Under the pieces are notes generated by a model, which made no database searches, was not told the origin of the DNA, and worked only from the letters and a program-made list of their open reading frames with translations. From Octopus vulgaris (Eukaryota): 64,000 nucleotides of DNA. The stretch covers positions 17,112,001 through 17,176,000 of the forward strand of contig OX597821.1 in assembly GCA_951406725.2 (NCBI GenBank). Direction: 5' to 3'. The position numbers and the translations under genes are program-made. Of this stretch, positions 6,281 to 52,535 are shown in pieces. The number at the start of each line of letters is the position of its first letter. Position 1 is the first letter of the stretch.

Positions 6281-6868
6281 TGGTTTCAAATGTTGGCACA
6301 GGACCAGCAACTCCGAGAGAATGGTTAAATCGATTATATCTACCCCCTGTGCTCAATTGGTACTTAATATATCGACCATAAAAGGATGAAAGGCAATGTC
6401 TACTTCAGTGGAATTTGAACCCAGAACGTAAAGACACGGACGAAATACCTATTTCTTTACTACCCACAAGGGGCTAAACACAGAGAGGACAAACAAGGAC
6501 AGACAAACAGATTAAGTCGATTAGATCGACCCCAGTGCGTAACTGGTACTTAATTTATCGACCCCGGAAATGATGAAAGGCAAAGTCGACATCGGCGGAA
6601 TTTGAACTTAGAACGTAACGGCAGACGAAATACTTATTTCTTTATTATCTACAAGGGGCTAAACACAGAGGGGACAAACAAGGACAGACATAGGTATTAA
6701 GTCGATTACATCGACCCCAGTGCGTAACCGGTACTTAATTTATCGACCCCGAAAGGACGAAAGGCAAAGTCGACTTCGGCGGAATTTGAACTCAGAACGT
6801 AACGGCAGACGAAATACCACTAAGCCTTTCGCCCGGCGTGACTAACGTTTCTGCCAGTTCGTGGCCTT
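6281..6868 (-). mobile_element. Tandem trimer of SINE family C
   Basis: Three units of about 180 bp joined at gacgaaatac(c/t)tatttcttt. Confidence 0.9.
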
Positions 6869-11135: not shown

Positions 11136-11528
11136 GTGGAGGCGCAATGGCCCAGTGGTTAGGGCAGCGGACTCGCGGTCGTAGGATCGCGATTTCGATT
11201 CCCAGACCGGGCGTTGTGAGTGTTTATTGAGCGAAAACACCTAAAGCTCCACGAGGTTCCGGCAGTGATGGTGGTGATCCCTGCTGTACTCTTTCACCAC
11301 AACTTTCTCTCACTCTTTCTTCCTGTTTCTGTTGTACCTGTATTTCAAAGGGCCGGCCTTGTCACTCTCTGTGTCACGCTGAATATCCCCGAGAACTACG
11401 TTAAGGGTACACGTGTCTGTGGAGTGCTCAGCCACTTACACGTTAATCTCACGAGCAGGTTGTTCCGTTGGTCGGATCAACCGGAACACTCATCGTCGTA
11501 ACCGACGGAGTGCTTCCATGTTATGTCC
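11136..11528 (+). mobile_element. SINE family B (tRNA-Arg-like head), tail type 1
   Basis: A box tggcccagtgg, B-box-like tttcgattccc; 12-bp TSD ataacatattgc at 11124-11135 and 11529-11540. Confidence 0.92.
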
Positions 11529-18556: not shown

Positions 18557-18916
18557 GTGGAGGCGCAATGGCCCAGTGGTTAGGGCAGCGGACTCACGGT
18601 CATAGGATCGCGGTTTCGATTCCCAGACCGGGCGTTGTGAGTGTTTATTGAACGAAAACACCTAAAACTCCACGAGGCTCCGGCAGGGGATGGTGGTAAT
18701 CCCTGCTGTACTCTTTCACCACAACTTTTCTCTCACTCTTACTTCCTGTTTCTGTTGTATCTGTATTTCAAAGGACCGGCCTTGTCACTCTCTGTGTCAC
18801 CCTGAATATCCCCGAGAACTACGTTAAGGGTACACGTGTCTGTGGAGTGCTCAGCCACTTACACGTTAATTTCACGAGCAGGCTGTTCCGTTGATTCGGA
18901 TCAACCGGAACCCTCG
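18557..18916 (+). mobile_element. SINE family B, tail type 1
   Basis: Near-identical to 11136-11500. Confidence 0.92.
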
Positions 18917-31466: not shown

Positions 31467-32848
31467 AAGGGTGAAAAGGAACACACGAGTTGATATATAT
31501 GAAAAAACAAGTCAAAATAGAAAATGTTAAAATAATTTTATAAAGAACATTTCAGTACCGGTTTCGGTCATTTTGAGACCTTTCAACTGTAACGATTAAA
31601 TAATTAAATTTAGAAAAATTAGAAGAAAAGTTTTTTTAAAGGAATATTTGTATAGTAGTGTTCAAATATAAGTGGCATTCTGCCTTTCTCTGACTCCCTT
31701 GTTTGCACTTGTGTGTTCGAGGTCGTTGTGAATTCTTGGTAGGGTAGAAGAAGAAGAAGGCTGAAGAGGAGAGGGGGTGGAAAAATTTGGGAGTGCCTTG
31801 ATTGTTGTATTTTGAATGGTCAGTGACGGCTAGCAGTTGCAGTTCAATTCAGAATATTTCTATTGAGAGATTTGTTTATGGAATTTGCGTAGGTGTTTTA
31901 ATAAAAAGCATTAGTGATAAAGTTAAGAGGTAGAAGGTGGAGCAGAAGAAGAAGAAAAAGGAGAACAAGAGGAAGATGACGATGTTGATGATGATGATGA
32001 AGAAGAAGAAGGAGAAGGAGAAGAAGAAGATGTTGATGATGATGGTGGTGATGATGATGACGATGATGATGATAATGATGATGATGAAGAAGAAGAGGAA
32101 GAAGAAGAAAACAGAGAAGGGAGAATATGAATGGGTGAAAGTAGTGAGGTGTTGTATGACTTGAAGTTGGCATGTTATGGATTATAGCTGTGATTGGGGC
32201 TGATTAGTAATGGATTCTTTGGAATGTAATATTTGTGTGTGTCTTTCTTTTATTCTAAAGTTGAGGTATATTAATCGTTTGTCGTAGACCCGTTAAGAAG
32301 TGGCCTGTATTTTGTAATAAAGAGAGTTTCTTTACTTATTCGTTGTCTCGAGGTTGTATCGTCCCTAAATTGGTAGAGGGGGAAAATCCTGAAGCCTGGT
32401 GTTTTGTTGTTGGCGCAAGTATCTATGTGTTGGCTGAAAGCTATTTTTCTGTTTTGGGGAATTTTTATCTGGGATCTGTGCAGGGCCATTCTTTTACGCA
32501 AACTATTTTTTTTTGGCCTACGTACTGCTCTTGACACCCGGAGCAGGTTAGTGAGTATATTAGGTTCTCCGAAGCACATGTGAAGTTGCTTTTCACTGTA
32601 AACCGTTGTCCCTGTTTGAAGGAGAACTCTGATCCCTCAATTAGATAGTCGCATATCCCGCAATTGGGTCTTCCACATTTTTTTACTGTCGGCTTCTGTG
32701 TTGAAGAGTGAATTCGGGCTTGTGTTAGGAGACTTTTCATGGATTTAGGCTGTCTCTTGCTTTTTATGATCGTGTGTGTTTGGAGGATTGTGTTCATTAC
32801 TAATCAGCCCCAATCACAGCTATAATCCATAACATGCCAACTTCAAGT
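31466..32848 (-). mobile_element. Penelope-like element, 5'-truncated, GIY-YIG endonuclease with frameshift
   Basis: KCGRPNCGIC...FTCASENLIYSLTCSGCQEQYVGQ, then LRKRMALHRSQI...KETLFITKYRPLLN; HHR-like motif at 31552-31590; 54-bp inverted 5' copy. Confidence 0.9.
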
Positions 32849-35910: not shown

Positions 35911-36425
35911 AAGATCTATATAGAAGCTATTATTGTGAGCCATATTGAATGGCCAAAGAGCCTTGGTCAGGTCAGGCTGAATATCTTCCAAGAATATCTT
36001 CCAAGTGGTTTACAAAACGATTTTATTCTTTTTTAAGGATTGATATTTTGTTATATGAGTTATTTAAAAGATCAAGGAGGACATGTTTTGAAGCTAACAG
36101 CATTTGTTTCAGCTTTATCTTCGGTTATCCTTAAACGCGTCCATTACAAGTATGCTATTACCTTTAGAGAGTTAAGGACGGGGAGTTAACAGAATCGTTA
36201 GCACATAGGACTAAATGCCATGTGCTAGTCATTCTATCGTTCTATGTTCAGGCTTCCGTTTTCACCAAGCTCAACATTGAAATTAGTCTCTCCAGAGTGT
36301 GAGTGTGAGTGAGTGTGTCTATGTATGTCTACATGTGTCTGCGTGTGTGTATATGTATGTGTGTGTGTGTATTTACATATGAATGCATACTGAGAGAAGT
36401 CATCTAATAGAAAAGATGCTGTTAC

Positions 36426-36431
36426 TTCTTC

Positions 36432-36463
<32 letters not shown>

Positions 36464-36942
36464 CCAATCAGGACTCACCCCATTAGCCACAAAGAATAAT
36501 CTCTAATTCGAGCCTACTCTAAGCTACTAAGAATGCGTGTGGAAACTTGAAAATCCACCCACCACACGCGATAGACTGGCGGTTGCACGGGCGCGAAAAT
36601 TACGTTGTTATCCTCATTCCGTAAAGGGTGGCTTTTAACGAGTGGAGAGCTGAACCATCCTGGAGTACAGAGGATTCGCAACTTAGACTAGGGTCTGAAA
36701 GTTTTCCACACCACAGTGGTTTACACCATGGTTCCTCTGCTTTGTGGCAGAAGTAGGAAGAAAGAGTGAGAGAAAGTTGTGGTGAAAGAGTACAGTGGGT
36801 TTACCACCACCACCCGCCGGAGTCTTGTTGAGCTTAGGTGTTTTTGCTCAATAAACACTCACAATGCACGGTCTGGGAATCGAAACCGCGTTCTGACAAC
36901 CACCAGTCCGTTGCCCTAACCACTGGGCCATTGCGCCTCTAC
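36426..36942 (-). mobile_element. SINE family B, tail type 2 ending in (GAA)n
   Basis: Family B head; 12-bp TSD agatgctgttac at 36414-36425 and 36943-36954. Confidence 0.92.
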
Positions 36943-37662
36943 AGATGCTGTTACAGCTGTTACGTGGAATGAAATTCAGCTACGCAGCTATGCTTATCGT
37001 TTCACAAAGTCTCTGGCGTAGTGCCTATTTTTCCCTGCTGTTGCTCACTAACTGGGTTAGCATCAAGTTGTAAAGCCTCCAGTTTTTCGTCACTGTTTCC
37101 CCTTTCTTCATAGAGCAGACATATCCTATTTTTTCCCTTGCCACAAATCTCGTTCTGCGGAAATCCAAGATGAACATCTGCTGCATCGTCCTCCATATTG
37201 GTCTAGTTAAGTAGTCAAGTCCTACAATAACTACTTCTCCAATTCAATCTAAATACAAAACATCAAAAAGATTTCATAAGCTATATGCATAGTTAATAGC
37301 TATAGTTTCGTTATTTATTTATCTATAAAACCAGTATATGGAAATATTACAAACATATACTTGGAAGAGAAAGTTTCGTTTTGGTCTGTTTTGTTTGGGA
37401 GTTTTGTCAGTGCGTGTAACTTTTTTTTATCATTTTATTTATCATTTTTCTATCATTTTATTCATAAAAAGGAAAATGTTTAAGGGAGAATGAAATCATA
37501 ATACAATCAAGAGGCATTATATTGGGCAGAGTGATTTCAATTTTTAATAAGATGAAGAAATAAATCATTACACAGATATTTTTATAAGATAAATAACCTG
37601 GAAGAAAATCAATAACAATGTATAATTAATTTCATAATTGTTTCTGCTTCCGTTGTGGGCTG

Positions 37663-38591: not shown

Positions 38592-38669
38592 ATATATACC
38601 AAATAGTGAGGGTACATTGTTTACATTATTTACATTTGTCGGATATTTGTCATCATCTTGTTTGTTGTT

Positions 38670-38715
38670 AACGCAACGTTTCGGCTGATATACCCTCCAG
38701 CCTTCATCAGGTGTC
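38670..38715 (-). ncRNA. Minimal hammerhead motif, left arm
   Basis: gacac-CTGATGA-a-ggctg(gagggtatat)cagcc-GAAA-cg-TT-gcgtt. Confidence 0.7.
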
Positions 38716-38803
38716 TTGGGGAAGTTTCGAACCTGGTTTCTCATTCCTAAGGTATTTTTCGATGTTGTTGTTATTGCTATTGTTGTCGTCTTCTTCTTCT
38801 TCG

Positions 38804-38834
<31 letters not shown>

Positions 38835-38863
38835 CTTCTTCTTCTTCTTCTTCTTCTTCTTCC

Positions 38864-38949
<86 letters not shown>

Positions 38950-38951
38950 TG

Positions 38952-38960
38952 CTTCTTCGT

Positions 38961-38991
<31 letters not shown>

Positions 38992-39483
38992 TTCTTCTTC
39001 TTCTTCCAATCAGAGCTCACGCCATTACCCACATAGAATATTCTCTAATTCGAACCCACTCTAAGCTACTAAGAAGGCGTGTGGCAACTTGAAGATCCAC
39101 CCACCACACGCAATAAACTGGCGGTTGCATAGGCGCGAAAGCTACGTTGTTATCATCATTCCGTAAAGGCTGGCTTTTATCGGGTAGAGAGCTGAACCAT
39201 TCTGGTGTACACAGGATTTGCAATCTAGACTAGGGTCTGAAAGTTTACCACAACATAGTGGGTTACACCATGGTTCCTCTGCTTTGTAGCAGAAGTAGGA
39301 AGAAAGAGTGAGAGAAAGTTGTGGTGAAAGGGTACAGTGGGGCTTACCACTACCCCCGCCGGAGCCTCGTGGAGCTTAGGTGTTTTTGCTCAATAAAACA
39401 CTCACAATGTCCGGTCTGGGAATCGAAACCGCGTCTTACGACCGCGAGTCCACTGCCCTAACCACTGGGCTATTGCTCCTACA
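38952..39483 (-). mobile_element. SINE family B, tail type 2, nested in the left arm of the inverted dimer
   Basis: Homologous along its length to 36426-36942. Confidence 0.9.
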
Positions 39484-39777
39484 CTGTTGTTGTTGTTGCT
39501 TCTGTTGTTGTTAGTGTTGTTGTTGTTTTTGCTGTTGTTGTTGTTATTATTATTCAGGTCACCGCCTGGAATTGAACCTGAAATCTTGGGGTTAGTAGCC
39601 CACGCTCTTGACCACGCCATATGCCGGTGGATGTAGTGATTAAGAGTGCGGGCTACTAACCCCAAGATTCCGAGTTCAATTCCAGGCATTGACCTGAATA
39701 ATAATAACAACAACAACAACAACAGAATCATCGAAAAATACCTTAGGAATGGGAAACCAGATTTGAAATTTCTGCAA

Positions 39778-39823
39778 GACACCTGATGAAGGCTGGAGGG
39801 TATATCAGCCGAAACGTTGTGTT
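39778..39823 (+). ncRNA. Minimal hammerhead motif, right arm
   Basis: gacac-CTGATGA(39783-39789)-a-ggctg/cagcc-GAAA(39811-39814)-cg-TT-gtgtt; palindromic aacgtt stem III. Confidence 0.75.
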
Positions 39824-40093
39824 AGCAACAAACAAGACAAGGAGAAACATCCGTCAAATGTAAATAATGTAAATAACGTACATATTTCTTCATCTCTTAA
39901 ATATAGAACTGTAATAGTGAGGGGTTATCAATCCGGGCAAAATAATTCATAAGCTCTCTGCTCTCAGTTGGTACACAACACTAACAACATTCCTTAGACT
40001 AGTGAAGAACTCTTATAGCAAGTATTCTTAACGCAGCGTGCGAGGTGATGGTTCATCACAACTCTATATTTTAAACTCGTATATGTGTACGCC

Positions 40094-40557
40094 GTCACCT
40101 CCGTCAGTTCTACCTGCAATGTTATATGGTAGTGAAACATGGGCTACCTCAAAGAGAGAAGAGCAAAGACTGATAACGGCTCAAAGAGCCATGGAAAGGT
40201 TGATGCTTGGTATCTCGTTGAGAGAGCACATAAATAGCAACATCATCAGAAAGAAGTCCGGCGTGAGAGATGTCATCGCAGAGTATACTCGCAGCAAGTA
40301 TAGATGGGCTGGACACGTCGCCCGGCTCACCGATAATCGGTGGACGCACGTAGTTGTCGAGTGGTACCCGCGTGAGCGGAAAAGACCACCCGGAAGACCT
40401 CGACGACGGTGGAGTGACGATTTCAAGAGGACGATTGGGATCACGTGGATGAGAAAGGCGCGATCCAGGGAGGAGTGGACAGCATGCTGTGACCAGCGGT
40501 GTGAAATGGACGCCTGACGGACTGGTCGGTCAAAGTGATATCACTTCAAAGTGAAGT
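40094..40557 (+). mobile_element. RTE-clade LINE 3' fragment
   Basis: VLPAMLYGSETW...QRAMER.MLG...WAGHVAR..DNRW...R..GRPRRRW.D; 14-bp TSD tatatgtgtacgcc at 40080-40093 and 40558-40571. Confidence 0.93.
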
Positions 40558-45549: not shown

Positions 45550-45860
45550 AATGTCACCCTTTTGAAGCCTAGCCAGGCTCATGGACCCGGTTTCCCGGTT
45601 TCTGTGGCGTATGTGTTCCCCCCAGCTGGACGGGACGCCAGTCCATCGCAGCGTTACTCAAGAAACAGGAAGAGAGAGTGAGAGAAAGTTGTGGGGAAAG
45701 AGTACAACAGGAGTCGCCACCACTCCCTGACGGAGCCTCGTGGAGCTTTTAGGTGTTTTCGCTCAATAAACACACACACAACGACCAGTCTGGGAATCGA
45801 AACCGCGATCCTCCGATCGCGATTCCGCTGCCCTAGCCACTGGGCCATTGCGCCTCTACA
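45550..45860 (-). mobile_element. SINE family B, tail type 3
   Basis: Family B head followed by ctgcgatggactggcgtcccgtccagc...cagaaaccgggaaaccggg. Confidence 0.88.
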
Positions 45861-47713: not shown

Positions 47714-49030
47714 AAGGCGGCGAGCTGGCAGAAACGTTAACATGCCGGACGAAATGCTTAGCGGTATTTCGTCTGCCGCTACGCTCTGAGCACAAATTCG
47801 GCCGAGGTCGACTTTGCCTTTCATCCTTTCGGTGTTGATAAATTAAGTACCAGTTACGCACTGGGGTCGATATAATCAACTTAATCTGTTTGTCTGTCCT
47901 TGTTTGTCCCATCTGTGTTTAGCCCCTTGTGGCTAGTAAAGAAATAGGTATTTCGTCTGCCGCTACGTTCTGAGTTCAAATTCCGCCGAGGTCGATTTTG
48001 CCTTTCATCTTTTCGGGGTCGATTAAATAAGTACCAGTTGCGCACTGGGGTCGATATAATCGACTTAATCCGTTTGTCTGTCCTTGTTTGTCCTCTCTGT
48101 GTTTAGCCCCTTGTGGGTAGTAAAGAAATAGGTATTTCGTCTGCCGGTATTTCGTTCGGAGTTCAAATTACACCGAGGTCGACTTTGCCTTTTAAGGCGG
48201 CGAGCTGGCAGAAACGTTAGCACGCCGGGCGAAATGCTCAACAGTATTTCGTCTGTCGCTACGTTCTGAGCGCAAATTCCGCCGAGGTAGACTTTGCCTT
48301 TTATCCTTTCGGGGTCGATTAAATAAGTACCATTTACGCACTGGGGTCGATTTAATCGACTTAATCCGTTTGTCTGTCCCTGTTTGTCCCTTCTGTGTTT
48401 AGCCCCTTGTGGGTAGTAAAGAAATAGGTATTTCCTCTGCCGTTATGTCCTGAGTTCGAATTCTACCGAGGTCGACTTTGCCTTTCATCATTTCAGGGTC
48501 GATAAACTAAGTAGCAGTTACGCCCTGGGGTCGATGTAATCGACTTAATATCCTTGTCCGGCCTTGTTTGTCCCCTCTAAGTTTAACCCCTTGTGGGCAA
48601 TAAAGAAATAAGAAACATTAGCGCGTCGGAAAAATATTAAGCAGTGTTTCTTCAGTCTTTACGTTCTAAGTTCAAATTACACAGAGGTCGGCTTTGCCTT
48701 TCGATAAAATATGTTCCAGTCGAGCCCTGGACAAGATGCAATCGACTGGCACCTTCCATGAAATTTCAGGCCTTGTGCCCATAGTAGAAAGAATTATTTA
48801 CTGTTTGGCCAAGGCGGTGAGCCAGGTGAATACTTACCACATCGGACACAATGCTTGCCGGAAATTTATCTGTCTCTTTACTCTTTGAATTCAAATGCCC
48901 CTTAAGTTCAACTTTCCTTTTAAAATTTCCGGAATTGATAAAATATCATGTTTAGCACTGAATGCCGATTTAATGAATTTCTCCCTCCCCAATCAAAAGT
49001 GTTGGGCTTGTGACAAAATTAGGAAGAATT
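47714..49030 (+). mobile_element. Tandem array of SINE family C (about 7 full or partial units)
   Basis: Repeated units of about 180 bp joined at aaagaaata|ggtatttcgtctgccg. Confidence 0.92.
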
Positions 49031-52227: not shown

Positions 52228-52535
52228 GTGGAGGCGCAATGGCCTAGTGGTTAGGGCAGCGGAATCACGGTCGTAGGATCGCGGTTTCGATTCCTAGACC
52301 GGGCGTTGTGAGTGTTTATTGAGCAAAAACACCTAAAAGCTCCACGAGGCTTCGGCAGGGGGTGGTGATCCCTGCTGTACTCTTTCACCACAACTTTCTC
52401 TCACTCTTTCTTCTGTTGGCCTGCTCGCTTAGCCAGCGGGGTGGCGTCATTTGAAGGCTAAAACAATGCGAACGCATTGTGACCAGCGATGTGTAACTAC
52501 ATCTGATAGCCTGGTCGGTCACGGTGATCACGTTG
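52228..52535 (+). mobile_element. SINE family B, tail type 4 (RTE-like 3' end)
   Basis: 11-bp TSD atatgcataat at 52217-52227 and 52536-52546. Confidence 0.92.

What the first reader, a model, noticed from the sequence alone, without database searches (positions are those of the whole stretch)
38602..39923. tRNA-headed, hammerhead-tailed retroelement inserted as a head-to-head palindrome: candidate Penelope-mobilised SINE
Seen: each arm has a tRNA-like Pol III head (A box tggcg[tag]tgg reconstructed from both arms, anticodon-like hairpin ggg-ctACTaa-ccc, B box g(a/g)gttcaattcc). This is followed by an (AAT/AAC)n linker and a tail of about 150-185 nt containing a minimal hammerhead (CTGATGA...GAAA-cg-TT, palindromic aacgtt stem III). 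The arms diverge from a centre at about 39626-39632, and the whole 1.3 kb lies inside one 11-bp direct repeat (aatagtgaggg), so it appears to have inserted as a unit. Known: minimal type I HHRs with palindromic stem III are typical of Penelope-like pLTRs and can cleave as dimers; classical SINE tails come from LINE 3' ends. Inference: a Pol III SINE that took a PLE pLTR as its tail, self-cleaves, and is integrated by PLE RT/GIY-YIG in inverted form. Read-through transcription would give a long dsRNA hairpin with ribozymes near both ends.
Basis: partly seen in the sequence, partly recalled or inferred. Interest (0 to 1): 0.9.

Follow-up and report, generated by a model that had tools for sequence, protein, structure and literature searches.

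The report
Penelope retrotransposon with built-in tRNA promoter
This is a head-to-head pair of short copies of the end repeat of a Penelope-type jumping gene; that repeat carries a tRNA-like promoter, so the element likely used RNA polymerase III to spawn thousands of SINE-like mini-copies and possibly to transcribe its own protein gene too.

Summary
In detail: two arms (tRNA-like head, (AAT/AAC)n linker, minimal hammerhead) point away from 39626-39631 inside an 11-bp target duplication. About 0.5 kb of the left arm is an unrelated SINE, likely inserted later. The family has roughly 12,000 copies; 49 of 86 sampled loci are two-armed. One arm carries a ~30-nt end extension and the other lacks it, the Penelope (PLE) signature. 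I found the autonomous partner, an RT + GIY-YIG PLE. It changes the reading: head, linker and hammerhead are that PLE's own pLTR, present after its stop codon and before its ORF, and the 'tail' is the ORF's first ~55 codons. So this is not a SINE that borrowed a tail. 25 of 30 unselected copies begin at the tRNA 5' end, as Pol III initiation predicts. The 2.3-kb ORF has no shared T4 terminator (about 3 expected, P~0.02; distant control PLEs 8-9), hinting that Pol III transcribes the coding element too. Copy ends do not map to the ribozyme cut. Transcription and cleavage are untested. Not found in nine literature searches; Repbase/Dfam unchecked. New variant of a known kind.

The parts
38602..38612 (+). 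left target-site duplication (11 bp)
38613..38786 (-). left arm: PLE pLTR 'tail' (first codons of the PLE ORF), ending at the inner start site, without the ~30-nt extension
38670..38715 (-). left minimal type I hammerhead; one A-C mismatch in stem I
38787..38966 (-). expanded (AAG)n/(AAT)n tract: left linker merged with the 3' microsatellite of the nested SINE
38967..39494 (-). nested unrelated ~520-bp SINE-like repeat, likely a later insertion into the linker; not part of the PLE family
   Evidence: 88.7% to 36425-36952, which has its own 12-bp duplication; four shorter window copies
39495..39554 (-). left (AAT/AAC)n linker, head-side part
39555..39625 (-). left tRNA-like head, complete to its 5' end; 3-nt deletion in the A box
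39626..39631 (.). junction of the two arms; decayed remnant of the small palindrome just upstream of the head
39632..39696 (+). right tRNA-like head (first ~10 nt missing); B box at 39674-39682
39697..39732 (+). right (AAT/AAC)n linker
39733..39912 (+). right arm tail = 5' end of the PLE ORF; likely start ATG at 39749; one stop codon in this copy
39778..39823 (+). right minimal type I hammerhead: core 39783-39789, extra A 39790, GAAA 39811-39814, predicted cut after 39818
39882..39912 (+). ~30-nt PLE end extension ('tail'), on this arm only
   Evidence: PMC8557442, PMC11167929
39913..39923 (+). right target-site duplication (11 bp)

Best explanation
The locus is an old insertion of two head-to-head short copies of the terminal repeat (pLTR) of an autonomous Penelope-like retrotransposon whose pLTR contains a tRNA-like head, likely a working RNA polymerase III promoter that made the short RNAs which the element's own protein then inserted. 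Shown: the autonomous element is pLTR - ORF (RT, C-terminal GIY-YIG) - pLTR; the pLTR is head + (AAT)n + hammerhead overlapping the first ~55 codons; most copies begin at the head; units have target duplications and one extended, one short 3' end. Inferred: (1) Pol III starts a few bases upstream of the tRNA-like head in every pLTR; from a downstream pLTR this gives a ~0.3-kb SINE-like RNA, from an upstream pLTR a long RNA that can run through the terminator-free ORF. (2) A dimer of the PLE protein cuts both DNA strands about 6-13 bp apart and primes reverse transcription from both ends, once at each of two start sites ~30 nt apart, on uncleaved RNA usually from one source. (3) The two cDNAs are joined at their 3' ends, often through the small palindrome at the head's 5' edge, giving the head-to-head unit. 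(4) The hammerhead would cut 69 nt into the ORF, so it more likely regulates the coding RNA than shapes the insert. (5) Later an unrelated SINE landed in the left linker.
For: Partner: of 29 loci found with an RT fragment, 21 have the head and 18 the tail downstream on the same strand, behind a GIY-YIG-type domain and stop. Of 30 loci found with the ORF N-terminus, 26 have the tail end directly upstream; 9 of 40 also have the head. The frame through the hammerhead aligns with the N-terminus of an intact 847-aa relative (40% over 224 aa, E 2e-48). 5' step: 25 of 30 position-ordered head copies start within ~10 nt of the head; 5 continue into the ORF end (4 by BLAST, 1 by eye). Genome counts agree: 2590 exact head 17-mers against 1051 for a 17-mer ~20 nt upstream; corrected by exact-match rates of 14/63 and 26/63 this is ~11,700 against ~2,500. 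Head resembles tRNA: best score to a tRNA-Arg(TCG) gene, 12-17 against shuffles of mean 2.2, max 6. PLE-type ends: in unselected units 14 of 16 have one extended and one short end, 2 both short, none both extended; where the forward arm was extended by selection, 0 of 30 inverted arms were. Arms of one unit share derived variants 2.5 times more than random pairs (0.97 vs 0.38, 64 units, 0 of 2000 permutations). No shared T4: 8 near-full copies have 0-2 runs, all at different columns; 28 runs in 87.6 kb, at most 4 of 37 copies at one place; codon-aware expectation 3.0-3.5, P 0.02; T-rich motifs 0 vs 4.9, P 0.01.
Against: No transcript evidence of any kind. The 5' step could also come from joining or stalling at the small palindrome at the head's edge. 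The terminator test is one lineage, P 0.01-0.03; single copies L240 and L254 are not depleted on their own (P 0.47, 0.63); the in-genome controls are a distant PLE clade with more Phe (4.7-5.2% vs 2.9%); the one nearer relative with DNA has 4 runs vs 4.4-5.4 expected. Of 9 copies with a head upstream of the ORF only 2 start at the head, 3 start inside it and 4 reach further upstream. The B-box pattern is intact in only 14 of 30 copies. Shared variants between arms could partly be conversion after insertion, and 8 of 57 units disagree at core position 7. How an uncapped Pol III RNA with a short upstream reading frame would be translated is unexplained. The tRNA comparison covered only 30 genes of a few isotypes.
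Confidence: 0.7

Rival explanations
1. Ordinary 5'-truncated PLE copies. The tRNA-like stretch is a passenger; Pol II makes all RNA, and 5' ends pile up at the head because reverse transcription stalls or the arms join at the small palindrome there.
For: The short copies are collinear with the PLE 3' end and have no fixed differences from it. Many junctions run through the palindrome. PLE pLTRs typically hold promoters for the downstream copy (PMC6765202, passages).
Against: About ten of the 25 copies that start at the head have no inverted head beside them (read by eye). The drop is ~4-5 fold within ~20 nt, while the 5 longer copies end spread over 25-590 nt. A and B boxes sit in tRNA register and the ORF lacks T4 runs.
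Confidence: 0.17
2. One reading: a separate tRNA SINE captured a PLE pLTR and spread on its own; the autonomous PLE picked the head up afterwards from such a SINE.
For: Short copies outnumber ORF-linked ones about 4 to 1; a SINE or tRNA insertion ~25-30 bp behind the stop codon is the simplest origin of the head.
Against: No SINE-specific subfamily letters at 230 columns in 81 short vs 49 ORF-linked copies, and similar divergence (5.3% vs 7.0%, the short set partly chosen by score). No second family with this head in 30 unselected copies. None of the ORF-linked pLTR families seen lacks the head as a group.
Confidence: 0.1
3. A retrozyme or Sm-alpha-like cycle: the hammerhead cuts multimers into monomers or circles that are then reverse transcribed.
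For: Intact core in 96 of 120 arms; small deletions are enriched at the cut (26 of 226 arms vs 1-4% nearby).
Against: No copy ends at the cut; units are head-to-head with target duplications, not head-to-tail arrays; the deletions lie in a GT repeat prone to slippage.
Confidence: 0.03

Closest known systems
Penelope/Poseidon-clade PLEs, e.g. PAc of the green anole (PMC11167929, parts 1-2 of 4 read; PMC8557442, passages)
   Same: pLTR-ORF-pLTR layout, RT then GIY-YIG, hammerhead overlapping the ORF start, inverted 5'-truncated copy beside the 5' end, 30-40-bp tail at one end only; 39% identity to an 836-aa Anolis protein in the RT region.
   Different: The pLTR begins with a tRNA-like A/B-box head; most genomic copies are pLTR-only and start there; the ORF has no shared T4 run. 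None of this appears in the text I read.
Minimal PLE hammerheads (PMC4209133, parts 1-2 of 4 read)
   Same: Short helix I, extra base between 9 and 10.1, palindromic 15.2-16.2, pairs of motifs 100-700 bp apart on opposite strands.
   Different: No Pol III head described; activity here untested (theirs was nil as monomer, low as dimer).
Schistosome Sm-alpha / Sj-alpha SINE-like repeats (seen only as summarised in PMC6765202, passages)
   Same: Pol III promoter followed by a hammerhead in a short repeat.
   Different: Those are tandem arrays cut into monomers; here ends are set by PLE priming sites, units are inverted, and the promoter is shared with an identified coding partner.
TRIMp3: Cassandra, Helenus, Ajax (PMC10886601, passages)
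   Same: Small-RNA-derived Pol III promoter inside a terminal repeat.
   Different: They are non-autonomous LTR elements; the paper states that their partners must use Pol II and are unlikely to share long LTR stretches. Here the coding element itself carries the head.
Non-autonomous PLEs: MRC1/Chlamys derivatives (PMC8557442, passages) and non-LTR retrozymes (10.64898/2026.07.22.740005, part 1 of 5; PMC7229834, passages)
   Same: Short pLTR-related elements thought to be moved by PLE proteins.
   Different: Head-to-tail arrays; no tRNA head or Pol III in the text I read.
Classical tRNA SINEs (definition in PMC3531059, passages)
   Same: Under 700 bp, non-coding, tRNA head with internal boxes, thousands of copies.
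   Different: Partner is a PLE, not a LINE; no simple-repeat 3' tail; the head is not private to the short element.

Membership tests
EN+ Penelope-like element (autonomous partner) | Single ORF with PLE-type RT | tested here: met
   RVT_1 hit E 6e-8; 272 homologues at E<=1e-20; groups with intact relatives at 100% SH-aLRT in a quick tree. No intact full ORF seen among 58 matches; longest stop-free match 569 aa.
EN+ Penelope-like element (autonomous partner) | C-terminal GIY-YIG endonuclease | tested here: met
   Motif visible in translations; 29% over 157 aa to the C-terminus of the Anolis protein, E 6e-22. Pfam gave no hit on this piece.
EN+ Penelope-like element (autonomous partner) | pLTR on both sides of the ORF | tested here: met
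   Downstream in 21 of 29, upstream tail end in 26 of 30.
EN+ Penelope-like element (insertion signature) | Inverted 5' copy and 30-40-bp tail at one end only | tested here: met
   49 of 86 loci two-armed; no unit with two extended ends.
Minimal type I hammerhead | Core, stems I and II, palindromic helix III | tested here: met
   Rfam has no matching model.
Minimal type I hammerhead | Self-cleavage as dimer | not testable with these tools
   Needs an in vitro assay; the computed dimer minimum-energy fold is not exactly the catalytic fold.
tRNA SINE | Short, non-coding, tRNA-derived head with A and B boxes | tested here: met
tRNA SINE | Transcribed by Pol III from the internal promoter | tested here: inconclusive
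   Indirect only: 5' ends pile up at the head.
tRNA SINE | Partner is a LINE; 3' tail of simple repeats | tested here: not met
   Partner is a PLE; precise 3' ends without poly(A) or microsatellite.
tRNA SINE | Lineage independent of the partner, head absent from the partner | tested here: not met
   Head present in the partner; no fixed differences.
Non-LTR retrozyme | Head-to-tail tandem units bounded by the ribozyme cut | tested here: not met

The most novel reading that the evidence does not exclude
An autonomous, protein-coding retrotransposon that switched to RNA polymerase III: a tRNA-derived promoter in its pLTR drives a 2.5-kb terminator-free RT-endonuclease mRNA, and the same promoter in the downstream pLTR turns the element's own end into a built-in SINE family that outnumbers it about 4 to 1.
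Probability: 0.35. Interest if true: 0.85.

Novelty: new variant of a known kind. Interest (0 to 1): 0.62.

Why it matters
SINE-like amplification is textbook LINE parasitism; here a Penelope element appears to make its own SINE from its terminal repeat. If Pol III also makes the coding RNA, it goes against the stated expectation that autonomous partners of Pol III elements must use Pol II (PMC10886601) and poses a testable question on translation of uncapped RNA. Independently, the thousands of short two-armed copies are an unusually clean in vivo record of PLE integration: never two extended ends, target duplications of about 6-14 bp, and both arms mostly from one source. These fit and extend the two-start-site, both-strand chemistry shown in vitro for PAc.

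Tried and rejected
Rfam and ARAGORN: no tRNA or hammerhead hit. The genome's dominant GIY-YIG PLE (781-aa frame, many intact copies) is not the partner: no tail match in 50 loci by BLAST and profile search. No second Poseidon-like family in the genome to serve as a near control: all 30 loci found with the Anolis protein are this family. Metagenome scan gave one relative at 35%. Sequencing runs: no RNA holder on record; 20 of 24 listed runs under five organism labels hold part of the element; contigs of 4 runs cover all 30 bins but cannot show starts, strand or level, so nothing is concluded on expression. Earlier-findings look-ups were empty. SINEBase supplements could not be read, so identity with a described octopus SINE (Ohshima and Okada 1994, seen only as a reference) is not excluded; the one supplement of PMC13282606 holds no sequence match. 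The tree is the quick version; the careful search did not finish. In one search four loci were dropped before counting: three true duplicates and L150, dropped in error; it was kept in the 25-of-30 count. The 11-mer as part of the element was rejected (unique to this locus among aligned copies).

Full report
Observation. The window holds two inverted pairs, tails at 38612-38786 / 39707-39881 and heads at 39529-39620 / 39631-39722, each 87% complementary, inside an 11-mer found only at 38602 and 39913. Each arm reads outward: tRNA-like head, (AAT/AAC)n linker, ~150-180-nt tail with a minimal hammerhead. The left linker is interrupted by a ~520-bp repeat (38967-39494) that recurs at 36425-36952 with its own 12-bp duplication; it is a separate element, likely a later insertion. 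The genome is 2.8 Gb in 227 contigs; from recall of its repeat landscape it is probably an octopus, which I did not test.

The family. The right arm has 5215 first-look candidates in the genome; 40 were scored, and the near-full-length matches are 83-90% identical. An exact head 17-mer occurs 2590 times, its reversed control 0 times; with an exact-match rate of 14 of 63 this means about 11,700 heads. Of 30 position-ordered head copies, 27 have a tail hit on the same strand. Of 86 loci from three searches, 49 are head-to-head pairs; 25 of these have an exact end duplication of 8 bp or more (control 1.1%) and 17 of 10 bp or more (control 0.1%). 3' ends fall in two groups, tail positions 136-156 and 176-182, with no poly(A). 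In unselected units 14 of 16 have one end of each kind, 2 have two short ends and none has two long ends; where the forward arm was long by selection, 0 of 30 inverted arms were long. An inverted 5' copy and a 30-40-bp extension at one end are the described PLE signature (PMC8557442, passages), and the extension matches the gap between two reverse-transcription start sites in PAc, whose protein cuts and extends both strands and is predicted to be a dimer (PMC11167929, parts 1-2). Copies differ from the column majority by a median 5.3%; the window arms by 4.7% and 7.7%.

The partner. The abundant 781-aa GIY-YIG family does not share the tail (50 loci). One tail locus, L098, lay beside an RT fragment. 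Searching with it gave 1033 candidates; of 29 other loci, 21 carry the head and 18 the tail downstream, after a GIY-YIG-type domain and a stop codon, the head ~25-30 bp behind the stop. Searching with the ORF N-terminus, 26 of 30 loci have the tail end directly upstream and 9 of 40 also the head. The tail is coding: an ATG ~20 nt after the linker (window 39749) opens a frame through the hammerhead into the ORF, which aligns with an intact 847-aa relative from its residue 18 on (40%, E 2e-48). PAc's ORF also starts in its hammerhead (PMC11167929). The protein is 54-63% identical to five unnamed proteins and 39% to an Anolis protein and groups with them away from the genome's other PLEs in a quick tree. 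So the whole short element, head included, is this PLE's pLTR. Short (81) and ORF-linked (49) copies have the same majority letter at the ten most different of 230 columns; one column just passed the corrected threshold, a deletion at the cut site. No intact full ORF was seen among 58 matches, so the family is likely inactive.

Pol III. The head scores best against a tRNA-Arg(TCG) gene among 30 tRNA loci of a few isotypes (12-17; shuffles mean 2.2, max 6). 25 of 30 unselected copies start within ~10 nt of it; 5 run on 25-590 nt into the ORF end. A 17-mer ~20 nt upstream occurs 1051 times, about 2,500 copies after correction, a 4-5 fold drop. This is what a start site predicts, but joining or stalling at the small palindrome there is a live alternative. 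Pol III stops at T runs (established knowledge), so I counted them. Eight near-full ORFs have 0-2 runs of four or more T, none shared; 135 alignments covering 87.6 kb have 28 runs, at most 4 of 37 copies at one place. Codon-aware nulls expect 3.0-3.5 for copy L239 (observed 0, P 0.02), and T-rich variants 4.9 (observed 0, P 0.01). Two other PLE families here have 8-9 and 8 runs. Against: one lineage only; L240 and L254 alone are not depleted; the controls are distant and richer in Phe; only 2 of 9 upstream heads are the copy's 5' end. I put Pol III origin of the short RNAs at about 0.7 and of the coding RNA at about 0.35.

The hammerhead. The core is intact in 96 of 120 arms, with the common variant at the free position 7; the helix III segment is intact in 65 of 120. 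Short helix I, extra base after position 9 and palindromic helix III are the described minimal PLE form, inactive as monomer and weak as dimer (PMC4209133, parts 1-2). The cut (tail position 87) does not set copy ends: none of 20 internal 5' starts is at 88 and 3' ends lie 50-95 nt further on, in line with uncleaved RNA being the template for PAc. Small deletions are enriched at the cut (26 of 226 arms vs 1-4% nearby), a possible footprint of cleavage, but the site is a GT repeat.

How the pair forms (inferred). Arms of one unit share derived variants more than random pairs (0.97 vs 0.38; 64 units; 0 of 2000 permutations), so both usually copy one RNA or RNAs of one locus; conversion after insertion could contribute. 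I favour a protein dimer priming from both cut ends at the two start sites, the cDNAs meeting at the RNA 5' end.

Literature. Nine searches found no PLE with a tRNA head or Pol III promoter. Nearest: schistosome Pol III + hammerhead repeats (as summarised in PMC6765202, passages), TRIMp3 elements (PMC10886601, passages), non-autonomous PLEs and retrozymes (PMC8557442, PMC7229834 passages; 10.64898/2026.07.22.740005 part 1 of 5). PMC13282606 and PMC4758252 (passages) mention no such family. Repbase, Dfam, SINEBase tables and Ohshima and Okada 1994 could not be seen; the family may be listed there as an unclassified SINE or PLE.

Verdict. The palindrome, tail and hammerhead are known PLE traits; the built-in tRNA-type promoter and the terminator-free ORF are the new part. 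New variant of a known kind, interest 0.62.

Noticed in passing
window 38967-39494 (-), 36425-36952; shorter copies near 11136-11331, 18557-18754, 45661-45855, 52228-52413: A second SINE-like family: ~195-bp short form and ~520-bp long form ending in a GAA microsatellite; the 36425 copy has a 12-bp duplication. Partner not sought.
   Followed up: partly
window ~40090-40510 (+): Open frame resembling the C-terminal end of an RTE-type LINE (motif recognised from recall), 170 bp right of the element.
   Followed up: partly
window 32292-32797 (-): Fragment of the genome's other, 781-aa PLE family, 56-70% amino-acid identity.
   Followed up: no
window 6325-6818, 47763-48192, 48244-48610: Tandem arrays of a 184-185-bp SINE-like unit, 2-2.7 copies each.
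   Followed up: no
L037, L042, L245-L249 and many others: A PLE family with many copies of an identical-length 781-aa open frame, apparently young; no canonical hammerhead seen near its end in the stretches read.
   Followed up: partly
L208, L211, L212, L220, L227, L229, L234, L235, L286: Mini-elements of the form pLTR - first 250-500 bp of the ORF - pLTR, a second non-autonomous form of the same family.
   Followed up: no
family tail positions 84-89 (window ~39815-39820): Small deletions with several different breakpoints cluster at the predicted ribozyme cut, more often in ORF-linked copies (12 of 38 vs 4 of 70).
   Followed up: partly
L182: Cluster of seven tRNA-Cys-like genes and variants within 3 kb.
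   Followed up: no
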